A stretch of 64,000 nt of DNA from a phage: assembly GCA_024683775.1 (NCBI GenBank), contig GCA_024683775.1_4106.1; one strand, given 5' to 3'. Shown here one piece after another: positions 16,956-38,525 of this stretch. Numbering within the stretch: position 1 is the stretch's first letter; each line of letters opens with the position of its first letter. Below the pieces are notes generated by a model, which did not search any database, was not told where the DNA came from, and worked only from the letters and a program-made list of their open reading frames with translations. Both the position numbers and the translations under genes were made by a program.

Positions 16956-16985
16956 TTGGGACGGTTAAAAATCCCATGATATAAT
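16956..16985 (+). promoter_or_regulatory. promoter (TTGGGA, 18-bp spacer, TATAAT with TG extension)
   Basis: ttggga at 16956-16961, catgaTATAAT with TATAAT at 16980-16985; second promoter upstream of the SSB gene. Confidence 0.45.
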
Positions 16986-17072
16986 GTAAATTGTTGATGA
17001 GTCAATGAAGACAAATCAACGTTAATAGCCCGTTAAAACTTAACAAACAAACTAATGACAAGGAAGCCCAAT

Positions 17073-18122
17073 ATGCAAACTCTAGCTGAAATTCGTGCAA
17101 AACTAAAAGCTGAACAAGAAAAAGCAGAAGCACAGAAGAATGGTACATTTACAGGTGAACGTAAAGCCGATTCTTTCCTAGCTTTCTGGAATGTCCCTTA
17201 CAATGAACCACTAAACCTACGTTTTCTACCAGATGCTGATGAGTCTAACCCATTCTTCTGGCGTGAACGTGATATGATCAACCTAACGTTCCAAGGTATT
17301 GTTGGTATGCACACCGATAAAGTTACCGTTCAAGTACCATGTAACGAAATGTGGGTTCCTAAATCATGTCCAATTCTTAAAGAAGTACGTCAATGGTTCC
17401 AAAGTGCGAATGAAACTGGAAACGAAGAACTGAAAGCAATGGCTGGTCGTTACTGGAAAAAGAAAACCTATCTAATGCAATGTTTCGTTGCTCCTGATAG
17501 CGTAGCAGTAAAAGACGATATTGCTCCAGAAAACCCAATCCGTCGTATCCTAGCTAACAAAGATATCTTTGATAAAGTTAAATCTATCCTGCTAAACCCA
17601 GGCATCAAAGAACTACCAACTCACTACATTCACGGTCGTGACTTTGGTATTGTTAAAACTAAGAATGGTGGTGGTTACAATAGCTATGACATGTCTCAAT
17701 TCTCCATGTCCGAGCGTCCACTCAATGAAGAAGAACTGGCAGCGATTGAAAAGTTTGGTCTATATAATCTAAATGATTTTATGCCAAAACAACCAACTCC
17801 AGAAGAACTAAAAGCTATCGAAGAAATGTTCGAAGCATCTGTTGATGGTAAACCTTATGACCCTGCACGTTGGGCTTTCGCTTACCGTCCAGCAGGTGTA
17901 CAAAAACCAACAACTGGTACTATTAGTGAAAACAAACCTGCTCCACAAGCTCCAGTACAACAACCTGCTCCTGCACAAACTCCTGCTCCGCAAGCACCAG
18001 TAGCTACTCCTACTCCTGCTGCTGAACCAGTAGCTGCTGCACCAGCACCAGTAGCTGAAGCTCCAAAAGAACAACTTTCTGCATCTGCACTAGTTGCTCG
18101 TTTGAAACAACAAGGTAAGTAA
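17073..18122 (+). CDS. single-stranded DNA-binding protein (T4 gp32-like)
   Basis: N-terminus QTLAEIRAKLKA and LNLRFLP resemble gp32; Pro/Ala/Gln-rich flexible C-terminal tail; AAGGAAG RBS before ATG 17073. Confidence 0.75.
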   Translation: MQTLAEIRAKLKAEQEKAEAQKNGTFTGERKADSFLAFWNVPYNEPLNLRFLPDADESNPFFWRERDMINLTFQGIVGMHTDKVTVQVPCNEMWVPKSCPILKEVRQWFQSANETGNEELKAMAGRYWKKKTYLMQCFVAPDSVAVKDDIAPENPIRRILANKDIFDKVKSILLNPGIKELPTHYIHGRDFGIVKTKNGGGYNSYDMSQFSMSERPLNEEELAAIEKFGLYNLNDFMPKQPTPEELKAIEEMFEASVDGKPYDPARWAFAYRPAGVQKPTTGTISENKPAPQAPVQQPAPAQTPAPQAPVATPTPAAEPVAAAPAPVAEAPKEQLSASALVARLKQQGK

Positions 18123-18191: not shown

Positions 18192-19310
18192 ATGAAAATG
18201 ACAAGTGGTTTTGCAAACATTCTAAAAAATAGTACTGGTAGCGTTAAAAAGAATACTGGTGTTAGCGTAGGCTTTCATGATCCTGATACATGGATTAGTA
18301 CTGGTAACTTTGCTTTGAACTATCGTATTAGTGGTTATTTTGACCGTGGTATTCCACTAGGTAAAGTAACCATGTTTGCTGGTGAATCTGGTTCTGGTAA
18401 ATCATTTATCGTTTCTGGAAACATCGCCCGTGAAGCACAACAACAAGGTATCTTTGTTGTTATGATTGATTCCGAGAACGCATTGGATTCAGATTGGCTA
18501 CAAGCACTAGGTGTAGACACTTCAGAAGAAAAACTACTAAAAGTAAACATGGGTATGATTGGTGATGTTGCTAAATTTACCTATGAGTTCATCGAAGGGT
18601 ATCGTAAAGAATACGAAAATACTCCTAAAGAAGAACGTCAAAAAGTATTATTCATTATCGACTCAATTGGTATGTTGAATACTGAAGTTGCTAATGACCA
18701 GATGAAAGCTGGTAACTTGAAAGGTGATATGGGTCACAAACCTAAACAGCTTAAAGCTTACATCACCAACTGTGTAAACTCGATTGGTTCACTTAACATT
18801 GGTATGGTTTGTGTAAACCATAGTTATGAATCCCAAGATATGTTCAACCCTGATCCAAAAGTATCTGGTGGTAGTGGTTTGATTTATGCATCTTCTATGG
18901 TTATCGCAATGGGTAAACTAAAACTTAAAGAAGATGAAGAAGGCAACAAGACTTCAGATGTAAGTGGTATTCGTTCTAAATGTAAAGTCATGAAGACTCG
19001 TTACAACAAACCATTTGAAGATGTTGAGATTAAAATTCCTTGGGATAAAGGTATGGACCCACGCAGTGGTCTACTAGATATGTTCGAGAAATATGAACTT
19101 ATCGTTAAATCTGGTAACCGTCTAATGTACGTTGATATTGACACTGGTGAACAGATTCTAAAATATCGTAAAGAATGGATGCGTAACGAAGATTCTTGCC
19201 TTGATTTAGTTATGAATCAATTCAAACGTCACCCTTTGATTGAAGAAGTCAAAGAAGAAGAAAAAGGTGATGAATCATTTGGTACTGATATTGGAAGTAG
19301 TGAGGAATAA
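18192..19310 (+). CDS. uvsX: RecA-family recombinase UvsX
   Basis: Walker A GESGSGKSF in a RecA/UvsX-like context; AGGAG RBS. Confidence 0.85.
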   Translation: MKMTSGFANILKNSTGSVKKNTGVSVGFHDPDTWISTGNFALNYRISGYFDRGIPLGKVTMFAGESGSGKSFIVSGNIAREAQQQGIFVVMIDSENALDSDWLQALGVDTSEEKLLKVNMGMIGDVAKFTYEFIEGYRKEYENTPKEERQKVLFIIDSIGMLNTEVANDQMKAGNLKGDMGHKPKQLKAYITNCVNSIGSLNIGMVCVNHSYESQDMFNPDPKVSGGSGLIYASSMVIAMGKLKLKEDEEGNKTSDVSGIRSKCKVMKTRYNKPFEDVEIKIPWDKGMDPRSGLLDMFEKYELIVKSGNRLMYVDIDTGEQILKYRKEWMRNEDSCLDLVMNQFKRHPLIEEVKEEEKGDESFGTDIGSSEE

Positions 19311-19771
19311 TGAAACCTTGGCATTGGATCATCAAAGATGATAAATCTAAAATAATCGACATGATTGAACACTTCGAAAAAGAAACTGAAGAAGCTCGTC
19401 GTGAAGTTAAAAAGATTGGCATCATTGAAAAGATTGCTCAGGAGATTCCAGGCTGGCATGAGACTCGTCTCAGTCAGCTTCAAGAACTAGAAGCGGTACT
19501 TGAAATGCTAGAAATTGAAATGCGTCAACTACAAGCTGAAAAGTTTAAATATTTCCTTGAAGCATATCGTCGAGCACTATCATCTTCTGACTGTAAAAAG
19601 TATGTTGAAGGTGATAAAGAAGTTTGTGAATTATCCGAACTAATAAATGAAGTATCATATATCCGTAATACGTTTTCCAGTATTGTTAAATCCTTAGAGA
19701 TGAAAGCTTTTCAGTTAAACAATATTGTGAGACTACGTGCTGCTGGTATTGAAGATGCACGTTTAGAATAA
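19310..19771 (+). CDS. hypothetical protein (coiled-coil rich)
   Basis: 153-aa ORF directly after uvsX. Confidence 0.4.
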   Translation: MKPWHWIIKDDKSKIIDMIEHFEKETEEARREVKKIGIIEKIAQEIPGWHETRLSQLQELEAVLEMLEIEMRQLQAEKFKYFLEAYRRALSSSDCKKYVEGDKEVCELSELINEVSYIRNTFSSIVKSLEMKAFQLNNIVRLRAAGIEDARLE

Positions 19772-19818: not shown

Positions 19819-20637
19819 ATGACAAAATTAGATGAGTTCCTATCAAACGTATCAGTACTAGACACCGAAACAACTGGTGTCGAAAGTGAAGATGATATTA
19901 TTGAATTTAGTATTTCATATCCTCACGATGCACATGAGAATATTGATACTATTGATAACTACACTTTGCGTTATAAACCACTAAAAGATATACCACCAGA
20001 AGCAAGTGCTGTGCATTTTATCAGTACTGAAGATGTAGCAAACTGCATTGGTTATAAAGATGACTTAGAAAACATTGACGCACTAATGGGGTGTCGTAGT
20101 TATTTTATTGGACACAACGTTCAATTTGACCGCCGAATGATGGTAGATAATGAATATAAATATCGTAACTCAGTTTCGCAGTACTTGCTCGATGAAGATA
20201 AATGGATTTGTACCCTTCGTTTAGCTAAGAAGATGTTTGCAGAAGACACTGAATTCAAAAACTTAACTCTAAGTTATTTGTGGTATAAATTTGGTTGCTA
20301 TCGTGACGTACATCGTGCAGTGAATGCTCACGCAGCAAAAGATGACGTATTCATGTGTTACCAAGTTCTAATCAAATTGATTGAAGTTGCGATTGAACGT
20401 GGACATATTGACCCTAATGGTGACATTGGTGAACAAATCGTAACATTCTGTAATACACCAATGCGTTATAAATTCATGCCATTTGGTAAACACAAAGGCG
20501 AACCAATGGAAACTGTTCCATTGAACTATATTGAATGGATGATTACTAACAGTGATATCCTTGATGCAAGTAACCCAAACTGTGATAAAGATTTAGTATA
20601 TACATTTGAGTACGAATATAATACTCGAACTAATTAA
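19819..20637 (+). CDS. DnaQ-like DEDDh 3'-5' exonuclease
   Basis: Exo I LDTETTG, Exo II GHNVQFD, Exo III H...D (HRAVNAHAAKDD). Confidence 0.65.
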   Translation: MTKLDEFLSNVSVLDTETTGVESEDDIIEFSISYPHDAHENIDTIDNYTLRYKPLKDIPPEASAVHFISTEDVANCIGYKDDLENIDALMGCRSYFIGHNVQFDRRMMVDNEYKYRNSVSQYLLDEDKWICTLRLAKKMFAEDTEFKNLTLSYLWYKFGCYRDVHRAVNAHAAKDDVFMCYQVLIKLIEVAIERGHIDPNGDIGEQIVTFCNTPMRYKFMPFGKHKGEPMETVPLNYIEWMITNSDILDASNPNCDKDLVYTFEYEYNTRTN

Positions 20638-20652
20638 TAAAGGTATTCATGG

Positions 20653-22137
20653 ATGAAAACTTGTAAGCTAACCTTACTGGACGAGGTTAATTGTAAATTT
20701 GAGGGACTAGATCCCTCAATTCGTCAGAAGATGATTCGTGCAACAGAATATGTACTTCCATACGCTAAGTTCACCCCTGCTGGTCGTATTGGTCGTTGGG
20801 ATGGTAAGGTACAGTTTATGAACTTAGGTGGCAGTACTTACTACCACATGTTGGATAAGTTGTTGCCAATCTTAGATGAAGCAAAAATTGATATTGAACT
20901 TGAAGATCATCGTGTCAATTATGGATTCAATTTTGAACCAATTGATGAAGATATTTTTAGTGATGTTGTGTTTGGTGCTGGACACCACATGGAAGGTAAG
21001 TCAATCAAGCTCAGAGAGCATCAGGTGAACGCAGTTAATGCTTGCCTTGCAAACCCACATGGTTTATTATTAGCAGCTACAGGGGCTGGTAAAACGCTCA
21101 TCACAGCGGCATTATCCAAGAAGGTACAAGAGTATGGACGTTCTGTGATTATCGTACCTAGTACTGATTTGGTGCAGCAAACATATGATGACTATGTTAT
21201 GTGTGGTCTGGATACTGGTGTGTTCTATGGTGCACAGAAAGACTTTGGTCACCAACACACAATCACTACTTGGCAGTCATTCAACTCTTTGTGGAAGAAA
21301 ACAAAGAAAGGTGAAATTGAACTGACCGAACAAGATGTTCATGACTTTATTGATGGTGTGGTTTGTGTGATTGTCGATGAGTGTCAAGGTGCTGGTGGTG
21401 ATGCATTAGTTCAAGTACTCTCTAAAGTTATGAATAACGTACCACTTCGTTGGGGTTTAACTGGTACTATTCCAAAAGACCAAGTTGTTGCTGCGAAGAT
21501 TAAATGTAACGTTGGTGATGTGATATTTAAAATCACAGCTAAAGAATTACAAGATAAAAAAATACTAAGCACATGTAATGTGAACTGTATTAAACTTAAA
21601 AGTAATTTAAAGTTCGCGTCATATGCAGAAGAATTAAAGTACTTAGTTACTGACCGTGATAGAATGGCATATGTAGCATCACTGATAGGTGCGTTAGCAG
21701 AATCTGGAAACACTTTAGTACTGGTTGATAGACTTGAAGCTGGTGAATTACTTTGTGAATTTTTGGGTATTCCTAAGTCAGAATTTGTTCGTGGGGAAAC
21801 CAAAAAGAAAGATCGTGAATCTTCATATGGTGAAATTCGCTGGGCTGATAACAAAATACTCATTGCAACCTATGGGGTAGCAAGTACTGGTATCAGTATT
21901 TCTCGTTTGTATAATGTTGTTCTAATCGAACCAGGAAAAAGCTTCGTTCGTACCATACAGTCCATTGGTCGTGGGTTGCGTCGAGCAGAAGACAAAGACC
22001 ACGTGGAAATCTTTGATATCAGTGGCACAAACAAATATAGTGCAAAACACTTACGTGAACGTTTACAATACTATAAGGAAGCACAATATCCTCATAGTAT
22101 CATAGATGTTAAGGATTGGGAAAATACAGCGGGATAA
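20653..22137 (+). CDS. uvsW: SF2 helicase UvsW-like
   Basis: N-terminal GRWDGKVQF as in T4 UvsW, Walker A AATGAGKT, DEAH-like VIVDECQ. Confidence 0.75.
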   Translation: MKTCKLTLLDEVNCKFEGLDPSIRQKMIRATEYVLPYAKFTPAGRIGRWDGKVQFMNLGGSTYYHMLDKLLPILDEAKIDIELEDHRVNYGFNFEPIDEDIFSDVVFGAGHHMEGKSIKLREHQVNAVNACLANPHGLLLAATGAGKTLITAALSKKVQEYGRSVIIVPSTDLVQQTYDDYVMCGLDTGVFYGAQKDFGHQHTITTWQSFNSLWKKTKKGEIELTEQDVHDFIDGVVCVIVDECQGAGGDALVQVLSKVMNNVPLRWGLTGTIPKDQVVAAKIKCNVGDVIFKITAKELQDKKILSTCNVNCIKLKSNLKFASYAEELKYLVTDRDRMAYVASLIGALAESGNTLVLVDRLEAGELLCEFLGIPKSEFVRGETKKKDRESSYGEIRWADNKILIATYGVASTGISISRLYNVVLIEPGKSFVRTIQSIGRGLRRAEDKDHVEIFDISGTNKYSAKHLRERLQYYKEAQYPHSIIDVKDWENTAG

Positions 22138-22146
22138 TCCCGCTGT
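22126..22146 (+). other. perfect hairpin with the uvsW stop codon in its loop
   Basis: ACAGCGGGA-TAA-TCCCGCTGT (9-bp stem, 3-nt loop); no T-run follows. Confidence 0.5.
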
Positions 22147-22149
22147 ACA

Positions 22150-22158
22150 TGATATAAT
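22150..22158 (+). promoter_or_regulatory. extended -10 promoter element TGaTATAAT
   Basis: catgatataatgt immediately after the hairpin; same motif as at 16977 and 57314. Confidence 0.4.
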
Positions 22159-22193
22159 GTGTCGTATGACAACAACAAGGAAGTAAAATAAAA

Positions 22194-22622
22194 ATGGAAT
22201 TAAGATCTAGTATTGCTTTTATCTGTGACCAAGAAACGTTAGATGTAATTGATGTATTGTTGAATGATGATGGTATCATGGATGACATGGTATCTTCACT
22301 TGACTATATACCTGAACTAGAAACTGACGATACTAATGTTTGGAGATGTAATATTGACACTAATTCATGGATTAATATCTATGAATTGCAAACCAGAATT
22401 GACTCGAAAGTTGAATCATTAAAATATGATATCATCTATGCAAGTACTGATACTACAACGTTTATTGATGTTGTTAGTCTTAGTGGTAATTTTGATTCTT
22501 ACTTAGATACCGATGTTGATAAGATTCAAGAAATGTGTGAAACGTATGGTCTTGAATTCTATGGTACATCCGATGAAGATGAAGAAGATTACTACGATGA
22601 AGATGAAGATTCCCAGTACTAA
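22194..22622 (+). CDS. highly acidic small protein (candidate DNA mimic)
   Basis: 142 aa, Asp/Glu-rich, C-terminus DEDEEDYYDEDEDSQY. Confidence 0.45.
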   Translation: MELRSSIAFICDQETLDVIDVLLNDDGIMDDMVSSLDYIPELETDDTNVWRCNIDTNSWINIYELQTRIDSKVESLKYDIIYASTDTTTFIDVVSLSGNFDSYLDTDVDKIQEMCETYGLEFYGTSDEDEEDYYDEDEDSQY

Positions 22623-22631
22623 GGAGATGAG

Positions 22632-23129
22632 ATGAACGTATTAACCCCAGAAAATAATTCATTTGATATGGATTTAGTAACTGAACACATTCCATCAGAA
22701 ATGTATTGTGTTTTAGATTTGAGTCCAAACGGTGACTCTGACTTTTATTTTCGCCACATTTTGAACACTGTATCATTTAATAGTATCAGTGCTGATTTGC
22801 AGATTGGTGAAAAGATTATCCAAGTACCATTGGGTTGGCAAATCATGTTGGGTGATGAAGAGACAGGTATGGTTGAGATGTGTACCATTGAAAACATTCT
22901 TAATATGAAAGAACCTAAAGCTTTTGTTTACAATCCAATCCGTTCGATGTATCCTAAGTTTGAACCTGTAAAAGTACTGCGTGTATTCGCACTCACTACT
23001 AAGTGGCAGATCCCTATGCTGCCTAAGAAGAACTTACTATGTGTTCCTCTGCACAGTGGTGATAATCCACCTTGTGTTTACTTTGCAGATGAGAACGAGA
23101 AAATTCAAGATTTGTATCTAGGAGTGTAA
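22632..23129 (+). CDS. hypothetical protein
   Basis: 165-aa ORF. Confidence 0.4.
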   Translation: MNVLTPENNSFDMDLVTEHIPSEMYCVLDLSPNGDSDFYFRHILNTVSFNSISADLQIGEKIIQVPLGWQIMLGDEETGMVEMCTIENILNMKEPKAFVYNPIRSMYPKFEPVKVLRVFALTTKWQIPMLPKKNLLCVPLHSGDNPPCVYFADENEKIQDLYLGV

Positions 23130-23131
23130 TA

Positions 23132-23977
23132 GTGTTAGATTTCAGTAATATTAAAGCTAAGTCAGTAGACGAAAACGATAAACCAACCCAGCATACATTT
23201 TCTATTGCTGAATTTCTAAAACATATTGACCGTGCAGATTACAAATACTATAATGACATGACCGAAGATGAGCGTAAGGAATTTACGCCTTATACTGTAC
23301 TTCGTTGGGTAAGTTCACTTGATGACTCACTTCAAGTAACTTTCCCTAGTAGTAAAGTGGAAAACGTATTTGGTAAGTGGAAAGCTGGTGGCAAAGAAGC
23401 ACTCACTGAACTTGTCAAAGAACTCAATAGTACTGGTGTTAATGTAACATCAGTTACTAAGTACTGTCACAGTGACTATGATTGGCGTATCAAGTTTGCC
23501 GTACAAAGCAATGATGATGCTAACAAGTTGATTGCAGCAATGACTGAATTTAGTATTGCTGGTGGACAGATCATCTCATTGGTTGACAGTGACGTTGTAC
23601 GTTATCAGTTGATTATGTTGAATGATATGGTTAATGATGGGTTCTGGGATATGAAAGAACACCCTGAACTTGTATATCAACTACTATGTTCTGTTCATGA
23701 TATGTTGGGTGGTAAGGAATTACCACGAAACTGGTTAAACTTTTCCAAGAGTTTTAAGCGTGCTAATAATGAATTATTTGAACTCATTAAAAGTACACAG
23801 CCAGATTCAATCGCAACTCAAATGAACGAAGATGAATATAAAATTGTTTTGTTGCAATATAACAAAAAAACATTCGAGTCTTTCCTTGAAGACATAGGTT
23901 TACAAGAGAAAGAAATGAAATCAATGATGAAATTATTTAAAGAAGAATGTAAGAAATATGGCAAAGAAATCAAGTAG
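23132..23977 (+). CDS. hypothetical protein
   Basis: 281-aa ORF, GTG start with AGGAG 7 nt upstream. Confidence 0.4.
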   Translation: MLDFSNIKAKSVDENDKPTQHTFSIAEFLKHIDRADYKYYNDMTEDERKEFTPYTVLRWVSSLDDSLQVTFPSSKVENVFGKWKAGGKEALTELVKELNSTGVNVTSVTKYCHSDYDWRIKFAVQSNDDANKLIAAMTEFSIAGGQIISLVDSDVVRYQLIMLNDMVNDGFWDMKEHPELVYQLLCSVHDMLGGKELPRNWLNFSKSFKRANNELFELIKSTQPDSIATQMNEDEYKIVLLQYNKKTFESFLEDIGLQEKEMKSMMKLFKEECKKYGKEIK

Positions 23978-24668
23978 TCCCGTATACAAATGTAAGTTCT
24001 GTGATAAAGAATTTAAACGCGAAGACACAGTTAACACACATAAGTGTGTTAAACGTGACCGCTATGAAGATCGTGATAGCCGCCCCATGAGGGAGGCTTT
24101 TCGCATTTATATGCAATTCATGGAGTTAAACCATTTCCCTTTCAAGAAGGGAGTTGAACCATTAATGGCTTTTATAAAATCAAAGTACTTTAGTGATTTT
24201 TATGATTTTGCAATTTATTATTTGAACAACCGTGATATTTTAGATATTGATGGTTTTGTAAAAAGTCTAATTGTAAGAAACCGTCCTATTATGGAATGGA
24301 GTACTTATAAAGCAAAGGATGAATGGATATTAGATTGTATTCGTTCAGAATCTCCCAATGCTGCGGTTTCCCGTAGTGTTGTTGCGATGGTGGAATGGGG
24401 TCAGAATCTGAACTTGGAGTGGAATAAGTTTTTTTCCAATGTGAGTTCTGCCCGTGCAATTGCATGGATTGAGAGTGGTAAGATTTCACCTTGGATTATC
24501 TGGTTAGCACCAAAAGAAAGTACTAATAAGTTTTTCAAGAATCTCTCTAACTCTGAAATCGAGTATATACTTAAATACATTGATCCTAGTTACTTTGAGG
24601 TTAAAACTATAAAGTACAAAAAGGAATGTGATGAAATAAAAAGTATGCTACGTGAGGCTGGATTATGA
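23958..24668 (+). CDS. hypothetical protein with N-terminal C2H2-like zinc finger
   Basis: YKCKFCDKEFKREDTVNTHKC motif. Confidence 0.4.
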   Translation: MAKKSSSPVYKCKFCDKEFKREDTVNTHKCVKRDRYEDRDSRPMREAFRIYMQFMELNHFPFKKGVEPLMAFIKSKYFSDFYDFAIYYLNNRDILDIDGFVKSLIVRNRPIMEWSTYKAKDEWILDCIRSESPNAAVSRSVVAMVEWGQNLNLEWNKFFSNVSSARAIAWIESGKISPWIIWLAPKESTNKFFKNLSNSEIEYILKYIDPSYFEVKTIKYKKECDEIKSMLREAGL

Positions 24669-24994
24669 ATGGAAAAAGTATATATAATAAAATACCAGAA
24701 GGGTATGTACCTGTGCCTAAAGCAGATAAATCTAAATCTTTATCATTGCTTAGACAGGGTTCTATAACTGAAATTACACTTGATGGTAAAACCTTTCAGG
24801 TGCACGATCCTGTTCGTGTAGAAAAAATTATCAGTATGGTTGAAAGACATGAGGAAAGATTCTTTGGTCTAAGTCAAGAGTTGTCAAAGACCAAACAAAA
24901 GTGTACAATGTTAGAAAATCAGGTAACCAAATTATCTAACACTGTAAACAAATTGCAGGAGCAAATCAAAAATGCAGGATTCGACAAATTCTAA
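24665..24994 (+). CDS. hypothetical protein
   Basis: 109-aa ORF with C-terminal coiled-coil-like segment. Confidence 0.4.
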   Translation: MNGKSIYNKIPEGYVPVPKADKSKSLSLLRQGSITEITLDGKTFQVHDPVRVEKIISMVERHEERFFGLSQELSKTKQKCTMLENQVTKLSNTVNKLQEQIKNAGFDKF

Positions 24995-25610
24995 TTCGTA
25001 CCGTAAAGCACGAACAGATATCGACATTGACTTCAAAGATAGTAAGTCAGTGATTGCACAGCTTCCTTGTGTGCGAAGTACAGAAAAAATTACGGAGGAT
25101 GGTTTAATCCCCCATAACAGTGGTGTTCATTTTGATAATATACCAATTGACCCTATCACTGGTTTAGCCAGCATACAATATAAAGAAGCCGAACGCTTGG
25201 GATATCAAAAGGTAGATATCCTGTCACAATCGGCTTACCAGTATGTTCGTGATAGAGCACATTTAAAAGAACTAATGAATCAGGAACCTAATTGGGATCT
25301 TCTGTTAGAACCAGAAATAGTTGAACATCTTTCACAGATTAAAAAACACGTTACATTATTAAATGTGTGGAAACCTAAATCCATTGATGAACTTGCAATG
25401 TTTATTGCAATGATTCGTCCTGGAAAAAGGCAGTGCCAAAGTATGAATACATGGAGTGAAGTTGAATCCACTATATGGGATTACAGTACTATTGGCACAG
25501 ACCAAGCAGGAAATAAGTTACGATATTTCAAAAAGCCACATGCGTATGCATACAGCTTAATGATTGTAGTTCAACTTAACGCTTTAGTTGAACATCTTAC
25601 TTCTTCTTAA
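24972..25610 (+). CDS. DnaE-like (Pol III alpha) palm-domain fragment, C-terminal half
   Basis: TDIDIDF resembles the DnaE catalytic PDFDVDF; IDELAMFIAMIRPG vs DnaE FEDMIALVALFRPGP; HAYAYSLM vs SHSAAYALV; GGAG RBS. Confidence 0.45.
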   Translation: MQDSTNSNSYRKARTDIDIDFKDSKSVIAQLPCVRSTEKITEDGLIPHNSGVHFDNIPIDPITGLASIQYKEAERLGYQKVDILSQSAYQYVRDRAHLKELMNQEPNWDLLLEPEIVEHLSQIKKHVTLLNVWKPKSIDELAMFIAMIRPGKRQCQSMNTWSEVESTIWDYSTIGTDQAGNKLRYFKKPHAYAYSLMIVVQLNALVEHLTSS

Positions 25611-37710: not shown

Positions 37711-37737
37711 AGATCCCGCTTCGGCGGGATTTATTTC
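37711..37737 (+). terminator. rho-independent terminator (TTCG tetraloop)
   Basis: ATCCCGC-TTCG-GCGGGAT then TTATTT. Confidence 0.65.
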
Positions 37738-37751
37738 ATAGGAGTGATATA

Positions 37752-38525
37752 ATGAAAGTTGACTATCGTAGTCCAATAGATATTGGATTCATAGAAGAAT
37801 TTTGGGATGATCTTGATATGGATATGATTGTTCGCTATCAAAAACTCCCACAAGACTTTATAAAAAAACATTTTGATAAAATGAACCCTAATATGTTAGC
37901 TCGATATCAAACAATGACAACTGATTTTCTTAAAGAAAAGTGGGAGTGGTTTGATAAAAATGTTATTGCACAATATGTAGTCATGCCAATGGAATTGATT
38001 ATGGAAAAATGGAATGACTTCAAAGATAACTTTCTGGATACTGTTGCTAAGTATCAAAAACTAACACAAGATTTTATTCAAGACAAATGGAATGACCTTG
38101 TTGAATTTAGAGATGGTGTAATGTCGGAAATTTCCAGATACCAAAAACTAACACTTGATTTCATTAAAGATAAATGGGATTATATTGATAAGAACTATAT
38201 TTCATATTATCAAACTTTAACGGTTGATTTTATCAAAGATAATATTACTGCATTAAATGTTGCAGCAGTATCCGCATTTCAAATACTATCGGATGATATA
38301 CGCTCATTGATGGGGTTAGAAGCACCAGCAAAAACTATTACGGGTAATCAAATACTCGCGTTGGACCCATGTGCCGATGGTATGGCTCGATACAATGCTC
38401 ATACACCTGACAATAATACAGTTTTGACATGGAATGAACTACTTACACTACACTTGGGTTCACAAGAAGGAATTAGTGATATCCATTGGCTATCATATAA
38501 ATTGGGTCATAAAATTAATACATAA
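37752..38525 (+). CDS. tandem-repeat protein (about seven ~24-aa YQxLTxDFIxDKW repeats)
   Basis: Repeats RYQKLPQDFIKKHF, RYQTMTTDFLKEKW, KYQKLTQDFIQDKW, RYQKLTLDFIKDKW, YYQTLTVDFIKDN. Confidence 0.5.
   Translation: MKVDYRSPIDIGFIEEFWDDLDMDMIVRYQKLPQDFIKKHFDKMNPNMLARYQTMTTDFLKEKWEWFDKNVIAQYVVMPMELIMEKWNDFKDNFLDTVAKYQKLTQDFIQDKWNDLVEFRDGVMSEISRYQKLTLDFIKDKWDYIDKNYISYYQTLTVDFIKDNITALNVAAVSAFQILSDDIRSLMGLEAPAKTITGNQILALDPCADGMARYNAHTPDNNTVLTWNELLTLHLGSQEGISDIHWLSYKLGHKINT

What the first reader, a model, noticed from the sequence alone, without database searches (positions are those of the whole stretch)
22126..22622. Stop-codon hairpin, bare extended -10 and a highly acidic early protein after uvsW
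The uvsW stop codon TAA forms the loop of a perfect 9-bp hairpin with no T-run. It is followed by a TGaTATAAT element and a 142-aa protein that is extremely acidic, ending DEDEEDYYDEDEDSQY. Small acidic early proteins in phages are often DNA mimics that inhibit restriction or other DNA-binding host defences.
Basis: inference. Interest (0 to 1): 0.45.

Follow-up and report, generated by a model that had tools for sequence, protein, structure and literature searches.

The report
Acidic protein gene after jumbo-phage uvsW
In a RaK2-like jumbo coliphage, the uvsW helicase gene ends in a real RNA hairpin, followed by an already-described type of phage promoter and a conserved, extremely acidic protein of untested function that may act as a DNA or SSB-tail decoy.

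Summary
All three observations are real. The uvsW stop codon sits in the loop of a perfect 10-bp hairpin (22125-22147). TGATATAAT lies at 22150-22158. The 142-aa ORF (22194-22622) has net charge -33 and is by far the most acidic protein in the window.

The window is an Asteriusvirus-like (RaK2-like) jumbo coliphage. The hairpin is kept by compensatory changes in some lineages and lost in others. It is most likely a weak terminator or 3'-end stabiliser of the uvsW message.

The promoter is not "bare". It is a degenerate member of a phage promoter class, TGRRAC-N14-TGNTATAAT. The homologous site was already listed as Porf_282 in phage CBB, in a class tied to DNA-synthesis genes, not early genes.

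The protein has no sequence match to any known family. It has a ferredoxin-like (Api92/YubB-like) core and a disordered acidic tail tipped with aromatic residues. Both traits hold across 75 relatives, always just after SSB-UvsX-UvsY-exonuclease-UvsW.

A polyanionic decoy or adaptor role in recombination and replication is the best reading. A classic early anti-restriction role is possible but not favoured. Function is untested.

The parts
20653..22137 (+). uvsW-type helicase gene (494 aa); its last codons form the left arm of the hairpin
   Evidence: Pfam ResIII 2.7e-16, DEAD and Helicase_C; PHROG DNA helicase. Annotated as uvsW in Turkey3, RaK2 and CBB.
22125..22147 (+). Perfect 10-bp hairpin with the uvsW stop codon TAA (22135-22137) as its loop. 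No U-tract follows it in this phage.
   Evidence: Covariation across lineages: 6 of 10 pairs change on both sides, 0 of 500 shuffles reach the score, and slid controls are much lower. The homologous hairpin in G17 is annotated as an ARNOLD terminator, -14.2.
22130..22135 (+). CGGGAT, a degenerate copy (4 of 6) of the phage promoter's upstream hexamer TGRRAC. It lies 14 nt before the TG of the extended -10 and forms the 3' end of the hairpin's left arm plus the first loop base.
   Evidence: Relatives carry TGGGAT or TGGAAT at the same place. CBB Porf_282 is TGGAATGAG...TGATATAAT.
22150..22158 (+). Extended -10 element TGATATAAT. Transcription start inferred near 22164-22166.
   Evidence: Conserved 12-13 nt after the uvsW stop in 18 of 20 lineages compared (TGATACAAT in L018; none in XaC1; a plain CATATAAT in the Vibrio phage).
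22177..22183 (+). Shine-Dalgarno-like AAGGAAG, 10 nt before the ATG
   Evidence: Read directly from the sequence. GGA-containing motifs sit at the same place in relatives.
22194..22568 (+). Acidic protein, globular part (residues 1-125): ferredoxin-like alpha/beta domain with 28 D/E and 6 K/R
22569..22622 (+). Disordered acidic tail with aromatic residues (SDEDEEDYYDEDEDSQY) plus the stop codon
   Evidence: pLDDT below 50 for residues 125-142. Across 75 family members the last 20 residues have a median of 11 D/E and at most 1 K/R, and 74 of 75 have an aromatic residue in the last 5.
22632..23129 (+). Next gene, 9 nt downstream with its own GGAG: a free-standing 165-aa protein with a Hint/intein fold, very highly conserved
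23132..25610 (+). Rest of the tightly packed co-oriented gene string (281, 236, 109 and 212 aa), of unknown function and conserved in the same order in relatives
   Evidence: Only weak family hits.

Best explanation
The finding combines three separate elements.

(1) The hairpin is an RNA stem-loop at the 3' end of the uvsW message. It acts as a leaky terminator and/or a block to 3' exonucleases. It is specific to some lineages and is maintained there by compensatory mutations.

(2) Immediately after it lies a promoter of the phage's own class, TGRRAC-N14-TGNTATAAT, the class that precedes DNA-metabolism genes in RaK2-like phages. Here the upstream hexamer is degenerate (CGGGAT) and embedded in the hairpin, so activity probably rests mainly on the extended -10. 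The promoter starts a string of six conserved genes.

(3) The first of those genes encodes a non-virion protein found in every RaK2-like jumbo phage. It has a polyanionic ferredoxin-like domain and a disordered acidic tail tipped with aromatic residues. I infer that it works by electrostatic mimicry: it binds the basic nucleic-acid-binding or SSB-tail-binding surface of a protein in the recombination and replication pathway.

Two forms of this are possible. It could be a decoy that blocks a host enzyme such as RecBCD or an SSB client, as lambda Gam and T7 gp5.9 do from within their phages' DNA-metabolism gene clusters. Or it could be an adaptor for the phage's own gp32-like SSB, UvsX or UvsW.

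Shown: the sequence features, conservation, synteny, composition and fold. Inferred: the mimicry, the target and the expression timing.
For: Hairpin: it is real and improbable by chance. Four different arm sequences keep the pairing: ACAGCGGG/CCCGCTGT, AATCTGGG/CCCAGATT, AATGTGGG/CCCACATT (with TGA in the loop) and AGCGGGA/TCCCGCT. The covariation score is 0.256 against 0.130 in shuffles, with 0 of 500 shuffles reaching it. Some relatives add a short T-run, and G17 annotates the hairpin as a terminator.

Promoter: the class has 10 sites in the window against 0.6 expected, all on the coding strand, mostly 20-80 nt before start codons. TGNTATAAT is conserved at a fixed distance from the uvsW stop from E. 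coli phages to RaK2. The homologous CBB site is published as Porf_282, in a class enriched before DNA-synthesis genes.

Protein: it is the most acidic of 81 ORFs in the window. Charge density and the aromatic-tipped acidic tail persist down to about 20-30% identity, while the tail sequence itself drifts. The family is small: 22 clusters among 1.84 billion representative proteins. In every locus inspected it lies directly after the UvsW-type helicase; the loci that reach further upstream also show the exonuclease and UvsY, and G17, Turkey3, RaK2 and a marine Vibrio jumbo phage show UvsX or the SSB gene as well. Genus counts are identical to those of the neighbouring Hint gene, so every RaK2-like genome in the collection has it.

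Precedents: acidic DNA mimics that protect phage recombination from RecBCD are known and have unrelated folds (PMC9836394). Acidic SSB tails bind basic patches on replisome partners (PMC12339929), and reference titles cited there report that the C-terminal phenylalanine of T7 gp2.5 is essential.
Against: There is no experimental datum on this protein or any homologue. No RNA-seq or 5'-end data exist for any RaK2-like phage, so the promoter, its timing and termination at the hairpin are all predictions. The hairpin lacks a U-tract here and is absent in about half the lineages (GAP32, Yen9-04, XbC2, EJP2, RaK2), so whatever it does is dispensable.

The fold match (Api92/YubB-like) is to proteins of unknown function. 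I could not inspect model coordinates, so no DNA-like charge spacing was tested.

In more distant jumbo phages the slot between uvsW and the Hint gene holds different proteins: a near-neutral 83-aa protein in Callisto and a basic 167-aa protein in SCTP-2. The acidic protein is therefore not a universal partner of UvsW.
Confidence: 0.4

Rival explanations
1. One reading: an Ocr/ArdA-like DNA mimic made early to block type I restriction or another DNA-targeting host defence.
For: Very high negative charge density and small size. The CBB homologue is not named in the main text of the paper reporting the CBB virion proteome. DNA mimics have no common fold, so a new fold does not exclude this (PMC9836394). 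The only fold relatives, Api92/YubB/DUF1281 proteins, are encoded beside antirestriction genes in an ICE-like segment of a Pantoea plasmid (PMC10425158). In plasmid F they lie about 3 kb from an annotated antirestriction gene. At deeper evolutionary distance the slot after uvsW is variable.
Against: No hit to the Ocr, ArdA, KlcA, Arn, Ugi or Gam models or structures. The gene lies in the recombination module behind a promoter class linked to DNA-synthesis genes, not in the presumed early region. It is single-copy, strictly syntenic and 56-65% identical across phages of hosts with very different restriction repertoires. Anti-restriction genes are usually patchy (general knowledge). The conserved aromatic-tipped tail is not a feature of Ocr or ArdA (from memory).
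Confidence: 0.15
2. The protein is not a decoy but a positive subunit of the phage replisome or recombinosome. It would supply in trans the acidic, aromatic-tipped tail that this phage's gp32-like SSB lacks, or act as an acidic chaperone for a basic partner encoded nearby.
For: The gp32-like SSB (17055-18122) ends in a Pro/Ala/Gln-rich linker plus LSASALVARLKQQGK, with no acidic C-domain. T4 gp32, T7 gp2.5 and E. coli SSB all use acidic tails for partner contacts (PMC5892887 and PMC3936761, listed; PMC12339929). Two genes of the same operon are basic, pI 9.0 and 9.4. The gene is conserved throughout the clade and strictly syntenic.
Against: The whole globular domain is polyanionic, not just the tail, which is more than an adaptor needs. 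There is no OB fold or any known replisome fold. PA5oct-like and SCTP-2 phages keep UvsW and the Hint gene without an acidic protein.
Confidence: 0.2
3. The 21-23 bp palindrome works at the DNA level, as the operator of a dimeric regulator placed over the -35/spacer region of the promoter, rather than as an RNA hairpin.
For: The palindrome is centred about 29 bp upstream of the inferred start, over the -35/spacer region of a promoter with a poor -35. Symmetric co-variation of both arms is also what a dimeric binding site would show. A second promoter (16957-16985) has arms TGGGA/TCCCA in the same geometry.
Against: The arm sequences differ completely between lineages, and the palindrome is missing in about half of them although the promoter is kept. 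The half-site GCGGGAT occurs only in two hairpins plus one other place in 64 kb. One lineage extends the stem with two G-T pairs, which pair only as RNA. The left arm is also coding sequence.
Confidence: 0.07
4. The protein is a virion, scaffold or assembly component.
For: Acidic scaffolds exist. The SSB of RaK2-like phages has been reported in virion preparations.
Against: CBB_282 is never mentioned in the main text of the CBB paper, which reports 55 virion proteins found by mass spectrometry. The gene lies in the DNA-metabolism module, far from the structural block, and has no late-type ATAAATA motif upstream.
Confidence: 0.03

Closest known systems
Lambda Gam and T7 gp5.9 (DNA-mimic RecBCD inhibitors encoded among recombination and DNA-metabolism genes)
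   Same: Small, very acidic (gp5.9 has pI 4.0) and non-enzymatic. They are encoded beside the phage's own recombination or replication genes and protect recombination-dependent replication (PMC9836394). The gene here sits after UvsX-UvsY-exonuclease-UvsW and its product has pI about 4.
   Different: No sequence similarity. Gam and gp5.9 are helical dimers, whereas this protein is a ferredoxin-like alpha/beta domain with a long disordered tail. No binding data exist.
T7 Ocr and plasmid/transposon ArdA (anti-restriction DNA mimics)
   Same: Comparable negative charge density (from memory for Ocr and ArdA; -0.23 per residue here).
   Different: No HMM or fold match. Not in a leading or early position. 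Present in every genome of the clade and strictly syntenic. Carries an aromatic-tipped tail.
Acidic C-terminal tails of SSBs (E. coli SSB-Ct, T7 gp2.5, T4 gp32 C-domain)
   Same: A disordered run of D/E ending in or near an aromatic residue. Such tails dock onto basic patches of partner proteins (PMC12339929; PMC3936761 and PMC5892887, listed). 74 of 75 family members have an aromatic residue in the last 5.
   Different: The body is not an OB fold and is itself polyanionic, so it cannot bind ssDNA like an SSB.
Api92 / YubB / DUF1281_C ferredoxin-like domain (PDB 2ijr; Pfam PF18406)
   Different: No Pfam hit for any of 21 family members. hhalign against a DUF1281_C alignment is not significant. 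DUF1281 proteins are about 250-280 aa with an extra N-terminal domain. Their function is unknown.
RaK2-like "promoter 1" (TGAAACG ... TGNTATAAT) of phages GAP32 and CBB
   Same: Same extended -10 and same 14-nt spacing to an upstream hexamer. The homologous intergenic site is listed as Porf_282. The class is abundant in this window.
   Different: Here the upstream hexamer is CGGGAT, 2 mismatches to TGRRAC, and overlaps a hairpin. No transcript mapping exists for any member of the class.
T4 UvsW.1 (small protein encoded directly after T4 uvsW)
   Same: Position immediately downstream of uvsW (from memory for T4).
   Different: A profile search of all PDB chain sequences returned four weak matches (E 0.085 or higher), none to a UvsW.1 entry; that a solved UvsW.1 structure exists there is from memory. 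UvsW.1 is a small helical protein (from memory), whereas this one is alpha/beta with an acidic tail.

Membership tests
Ocr (Pfam PF08684) / ArdA (PF07275) anti-restriction DNA mimics | Sequence match to the family HMM | tested here: not met
   No such hit at E up to 1 for the protein, or up to 10 for 21 family members. A PDB profile search also found none.
Ocr (Pfam PF08684) / ArdA (PF07275) anti-restriction DNA mimics | Fold resembling Ocr or ArdA, with surface carboxylates spaced like B-DNA phosphates | tested here: inconclusive
   [not shown]
Ocr (Pfam PF08684) / ArdA (PF07275) anti-restriction DNA mimics | Inhibition of type I restriction-modification enzymes | not testable with these tools
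   Needs plating or binding assays.
RecBCD-inhibiting DNA mimics (lambda Gam, T7 gp5.9) | Sequence or fold homology | tested here: not met
   Both are helical dimers (PMC9836394), whereas this is an alpha/beta domain.
RecBCD-inhibiting DNA mimics (lambda Gam, T7 gp5.9) | Small, highly acidic, and encoded with the phage's recombination or DNA-metabolism genes | tested here: met
RecBCD-inhibiting DNA mimics (lambda Gam, T7 gp5.9) | Binds RecBCD and blocks DNA-end binding | not testable with these tools
   Needs biochemistry or complementation of gam- or gene-2 mutant phages.
SSB-type acidic C-terminal tail | Disordered D/E-rich C-terminus with an aromatic residue at or near the end | tested here: met
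   pLDDT below 50 for residues 125-142. 74 of 75 members have an aromatic residue in the last 5, with a median of 11 D/E in the last 20.
SSB-type acidic C-terminal tail | OB-fold ssDNA-binding body | tested here: not met
   Ferredoxin-like fold. The body has net charge -22.
Api92 / YubB (DUF1281, DUF1281_C) | Match to PF06924 or PF18406 | tested here: not met
   As a positive control, the F-plasmid ORFs hit both models.
Api92 / YubB (DUF1281, DUF1281_C) | Profile-profile similarity to DUF1281_C | tested here: inconclusive
   hhalign probability 1% or less and E 0.06-0.5, but the DUF1281_C alignment was shallow.
Api92 / YubB (DUF1281, DUF1281_C) | Shared three-dimensional fold | tested here: met
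   [not shown]
Rho-independent (intrinsic) terminator | G+C-rich stem-loop | tested here: met
   10 bp with 6 G-C pairs, about -17 kcal/mol.
Rho-independent (intrinsic) terminator | U-tract immediately 3' of the stem | tested here: not met
   CATGATATAATG follows the stem, and the terminator scan did not list it. Relatives have TTTG, TTTTG or TTTCT.
RaK2-like phage promoter class (TGRRAC-N14-TGNTATAAT; CBB/GAP32 "promoter 1") | Extended -10 TGNTATAAT upstream of a gene start | tested here: met
   22150-22158, 36 nt before the ATG. Conserved in relatives.
RaK2-like phage promoter class (TGRRAC-N14-TGNTATAAT; CBB/GAP32 "promoter 1") | Upstream hexamer TGRRAC 14 nt before the TG | tested here: inconclusive
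   CGGGAT matches 4 of 6. Orthologous sites have TGGGAT or TGGAAT, 5 of 6, and the CBB site is in the published list.
RaK2-like phage promoter class (TGRRAC-N14-TGNTATAAT; CBB/GAP32 "promoter 1") | Mapped transcription start | not testable with these tools
   No transcriptome of a RaK2-like phage was found.

The most novel reading that the evidence does not exclude
The protein founds a new family of nucleic-acid or SSB-tail mimics dedicated to the UvsX/UvsW recombination module of RaK2-like jumbo phages. It would be either a RecBCD-type inhibitor with a new ferredoxin-like fold, or a trans-acting "detached SSB tail" that replaces the acidic C-domain missing from these phages' gp32-like SSB. 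It may work together with the adjacent free-standing Hint-fold protein.
Probability: 0.2. Interest if true: 0.6.

Novelty: new member of a known kind. Interest (0 to 1): 0.35.

Why it matters
RaK2-like jumbo phages are being developed for therapy, yet most of their replication-module genes have no assigned function. This protein is present in every genome of the clade, has extreme composition and could be cloned and tested directly.

If it proves to be a decoy for RecBCD or for SSB-interacting enzymes, it would add a new fold to the known DNA or SSB-tail mimics. It would also show how these phages shield recombination-dependent replication.

The promoter class and the hairpin give concrete sites for the first transcript-mapping experiments in this group. 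If none of this holds, the finding is an ordinary terminator-promoter junction followed by a conserved hypothetical gene.

Tried and rejected
1. Stop-codon readthrough fusing the acidic ORF to the Hint ORF. The two are in frame here (438 nt apart). They are out of frame in EJP2, Hallingskeid, Munch, RaK2, L013 and L019 (coordinates). Rejected.

3. T4 UvsW.1 analogue. No sequence match among PDB chain sequences.

4. Homology to DUF1281_C. I fetched the F-plasmid Api92/YubB-like ORFs and their relatives. hhalign was not significant.

5. Wider family context. The alignment was too divergent for the search for related loci. Three IMG/VR scans with distant members found nothing. tblastn found one Vibrio jumbo phage with the same synteny.

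6. The PA5oct-like positional counterpart (83 aa, near neutral) shows a 21-residue local resemblance, but it is not significant.

7. Rfam: only sub-threshold chance hits.

8. The palindrome as a repeated operator: the half-site GCGGGAT occurs only in two hairpins plus one other site.

9. The afdb50 fold library was unavailable.

10. No transcriptome of a RaK2-like phage was found. The PA5oct paper gives no usable timing for this module.
Full report
**Identity of the window.** The region 20600-23200 is 99% identical to Escherichia phages Ecwhy_1, WPEC3, BF17 and fEgEco12, and about 85% identical to 121Q, PBECO4 and G17. These are Asteriusvirus, the RaK2-like jumbo myoviruses of about 350 kb. 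The local gene order on the + strand is:
- gp32-like SSB (17055-18122)
- UvsX/RecA (18192-19310)
- UvsY (19310-19771)
- a DnaQ-like exonuclease (19819-20637)
- a UvsW-type helicase (20653-22137)
- the acidic 142-aa ORF (22194-22622)
- five tightly packed ORFs of 165, 281, 236, 109 and 212 aa

**Observation check.** All three elements are present.
- Hairpin: it is one pair longer than reported, TACAGCGGGA-TAA-TCCCGCTGTA at 22125-22147, with the uvsW stop codon as the loop. It is the only perfect hairpin in the 64 kb with a stem of at least 9 bp and at least 6 G-C pairs, and 20 shuffles gave none. As RNA the stem is worth about -17 to -19 kcal/mol. It is followed by CATGATATAATG, whereas the window's other strong hairpins are followed by T-runs.
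- Promoter element: TGATATAAT is at 22150-22158. TGNTATAAT occurs 17 times against 6.2 expected, 15 of them on the + strand.
- Protein: 39 D/E against 6 K/R, net -33, pI about 4. Its net charge per residue is -0.232, against -0.106 for the runner-up among 81 ORFs.

**The hairpin.** I compared 20 lineages. These were GenBank phages fetched, and metagenomic contigs fetched.
- The pairing is kept with four different arm sequences: ACAGCGGG/CCCGCTGT (this phage, G17, JNE01, L012), AATCTGGG/CCCAGATT (Hallingskeid, L013), AATGTGGG/CCCACATT with TGA in the loop (L015), and AGCGGGA/TCCCGCT extended by two G-T pairs (L018).
- On a 15-sequence alignment, 6 of 10 pairs change on both sides. The covariation score is 0.256 against 0.130 for shuffles, 0 of 500 shuffles reach it, and all slid registers score far lower.
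- The hairpin is degenerate or absent in GAP32, Yen9-04, XbC2, EJP2, RaK2, L014, L016 and L019. It is therefore selected in some lineages and dispensable in others.
- Hallingskeid, G17 and L018 have short T-runs after the stem, and the G17 GenBank record annotates it as an ARNOLD terminator.
- A marine Vibrio jumbo phage has a different 12-bp hairpin butting against CATATAAT at the same junction.
- The hairpin lies upstream of the inferred start of the next transcript. It can therefore exist only in uvsW mRNA or in read-through RNA.

My reading is a leaky terminator and/or 3'-end stabiliser of the uvsW message. A DNA-level operator is a weak rival. The arm sequences are not conserved, and the half-site GCGGGAT occurs only in two hairpins plus one other place. 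Rfam has nothing there.

**The promoter.** Several intergenic TGNTATAAT sites, however, share an upstream hexamer exactly 14 nt before the TG.
- The pattern TGRRAC-N14-TGNTAYAAT has 10 matches with at most one mismatch against 0.6 expected. All are on the + strand, mostly 20-80 nt before start codons.
- The site here has CGGGAT at that position (22130-22135), matching 4 of 6. Orthologous sites have TGGGAT or TGGAAT.
- This class is already in the literature. The phage CBB paper describes a "divergent RpoD-like" promoter (TGAAACG upstream, classic -10), also seen in GAP32. It is concentrated before DNA-synthesis genes CBB_258-329. A different promoter type, RpoD-like with an UP element, marks the presumed early region (PMC5259590).
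- Its supplementary Table S6 lists Porf_282, TGGAATGAGTTAAATTTTTGTGATATAAT. CBB_281 is UvsW, so this is the site upstream of the next gene, taken here to be the acidic gene's homologue.
- The -10 is conserved 12-13 nt after the uvsW stop in 18 of 20 lineages, including RaK2.

The promoter prediction is therefore not new, and its class argues against "early". No transcript mapping exists for any RaK2-like phage. PA5oct, a distant relative, depends on host RNA polymerase, but the paper gives no usable timing for this module.

**The protein: family and conservation.**
- It matches only phrog_16541, of unknown function. There is nothing in Pfam, NCBIfam or PDB chain sequences, whether searched with the single sequence, with a profile, or with 21 diverse members.
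- Homologues are confined to RaK2-like jumbo phages: 73 phage records, 57 clusters in the 5.8-billion-protein set, and only 22 representatives at E of 1e-3 or better among 1.84 billion proteins in an exhaustive profile search.
- Identity to RaK2 is 56%.
- Across 75 members, down to about 20-30% identity, net charge per residue stays between -0.18 and -0.26. The last 20 residues have a median of 11 D/E and at most one K/R. 74 of 75 have an aromatic residue in the last five. The tail sequence itself is not conserved. Selection therefore acts on polyanionic character and an aromatic-tipped acidic tail.
- Every locus inspected places the gene directly after the UvsW-type helicase. The flanks that reach further upstream show the exonuclease and UvsY, and in G17, Turkey3, RaK2 and Vibrio phage 2.275.O also UvsX or the SSB gene.
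- Genus-by-genus counts equal those of the neighbouring Hint gene, so every RaK2-like genome in the collection has it.
- Further out, the slot between uvsW and the Hint gene holds other proteins: a near-neutral 83-aa protein in PA5oct-like Callisto and a basic 167-aa protein in Salicola phage SCTP-2. The Callisto protein has a 21-residue local resemblance that is not significant.

**The protein: structure.**
- AlphaFold2 with 22 sequences gives pLDDT 75.5. The core has the order beta-alpha-beta-beta-alpha-beta-beta-beta-alpha (residues 1-124), and the tail is disordered (125-142).
- None of Ocr, ArdA, Arn, Ugi, Gam or gp5.9 appears among the top hits.
- Foldseek against viral models finds the RaK2 orthologue, a 127-aa viral protein with no name in the tool's tables, and several proteins described as containing a YubB ferredoxin-like domain.
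- As a membership test I located the Api92/YubB-like reading frame in plasmid F. It matches PF06924 and PF18406. I then collected relatives.
- hhalign against the acidic family is not significant. The relationship is therefore fold-level only, and the family's function is unknown.
- The only circumstantial link to defence is gene neighbourhood. DUF1281 genes lie next to antirestriction genes in an ICE-like segment of a Pantoea plasmid (PMC10425158). In plasmid F they lie about 3 kb from an annotated antirestriction gene.

**Mechanism.** What is shown is the composition, the conserved tail character, the fold, the synteny, and the absence of the CBB homologue's name from the main text of the paper reporting the CBB virion proteome. 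The rest is inference.
- The closest functional precedents are small acidic DNA mimics encoded among a phage's own recombination or DNA-metabolism genes. These block RecBCD: lambda Gam and T7 gp5.9, and perhaps P22 Arf. They have unrelated folds (PMC9836394).
- A second set of precedents is the acidic tails of SSBs. These dock onto basic patches of replisome partners (PMC12339929; PMC3936761 and PMC5892887, listed). Reference titles cited in PMC12339929 report that the C-terminal phenylalanine of T7 gp2.5 is essential.
- This phage's gp32-like SSB has no acidic C-domain.
- I therefore rank first a decoy or adaptor acting on a DNA-binding or SSB-tail-binding protein of the recombination and replication pathway (confidence 0.4).
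- Second is a purely positive replisome-adaptor or chaperone role (0.2).
- A structural role is unlikely (0.03).

**Side finding.** The next gene (22632-23129) is a free-standing Hint/intein-fold protein.
- It has no Pfam hit and no N-terminal cysteine. It is conserved far more strongly than the acidic protein: 82% identical to RaK2 and 56% to the Vibrio phage.
- It occurs one gene downstream of a UvsW-like helicase in the PA5oct-like phage Callisto and in Salicola phage SCTP-2 as well.
- It is in frame with the acidic ORF here but not in six other lineages, so a readthrough fusion is rejected.

**Verdict.** The hairpin and promoter are ordinary and had already been predicted in relatives. The protein is an uncharacterised member of the clade-wide gene set, with the composition of a mimic but no tested function. 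The "early anti-restriction" reading is only partly supported.

Noticed in passing
[not shown]
   Followed up: partly
window 4110, 8059, 11653, 16880, 16957, 26983, 33406, 39883, 50537, 57294 (all +): A phage promoter class, TGRRAC-N14-TGNTAYAAT, has 10 sites with at most 1 mismatch against 0.6 expected, all on the coding strand. It is the Asteriusvirus version of the TGAAACG...TATAAT motif published for GAP32 and CBB. Two such sites lie in tandem upstream of the SSB gene.
   Followed up: partly
window 17055-18122 (+): The gp32-like SSB lacks the acidic C-terminal domain typical of T4 gp32, T7 gp2.5 and E. coli SSB. It ends in a Pro/Ala/Gln-rich linker and a short basic segment, LSASALVARLKQQGK.
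   Followed up: no
window 37713-37753 (+): A second CGGGAT-N14-TGATATAAT occurs here. The CGGGAT is again an arm of a GCGGGAT/ATCCCGC hairpin (ATCCCGC-TTCG-GCGGGAT, with a T-rich tail). Here the TATAATG overlaps the start codon of ORF 37752-38525, 8 nt after an AGGAG, so it may be a ribosome-binding region rather than a promoter.
   Followed up: partly
window 16957-16985 (+): A promoter-class site whose upstream hexamer TGGGAC and spacer end TCCCA form a 5-bp inverted repeat. This is the same geometry as at the uvsW junction, with one arm at the -35 position and the other abutting the extended -10.
   Followed up: no
L022 4739-4990 (Pseudomonas phage Callisto); L023 2959-3462 (Salicola phage SCTP-2): The slot between uvsW and the Hint gene holds unrelated-looking proteins in more distant jumbo phages. 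Callisto has a near-neutral 83-aa protein with a 21-residue local resemblance to the acidic family (hhalign not significant). SCTP-2 has a basic 167-aa low-complexity or coiled-coil protein.
   Followed up: partly
L020 5912-6000 (Vibrio phage 2.275.O._10N.286.54.E11): A different 12-bp hairpin (ATTGCCACAAAT-gc-ATTTGTGGCAAT) lies directly against CATATAAT between uvsW and the acidic-family gene. The hairpin-plus-minus-10 arrangement therefore recurs with unrelated sequence.
   Followed up: no
window 23132-25610 (+): The rest of the operon is unknown. The 281-aa protein gives only a weak hit to an intein-prone helicase family (E 0.002). The 236-aa protein starts with a C2H2-like zinc-finger motif and is basic. 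The 109-aa protein is a basic coiled coil. The 212-aa protein has a marginal hit to the Pol III alpha finger domain.
   Followed up: no
L021 6811-7781 (plasmid F, NC_002483 52810-53780): The Api92/YubB-like DUF1281 + DUF1281_C reading frame of plasmid F is split into two overlapping ORFs and is not in the PLSDB gene table. It lies between sopB and the methylase and antirestriction genes.
   Followed up: partly
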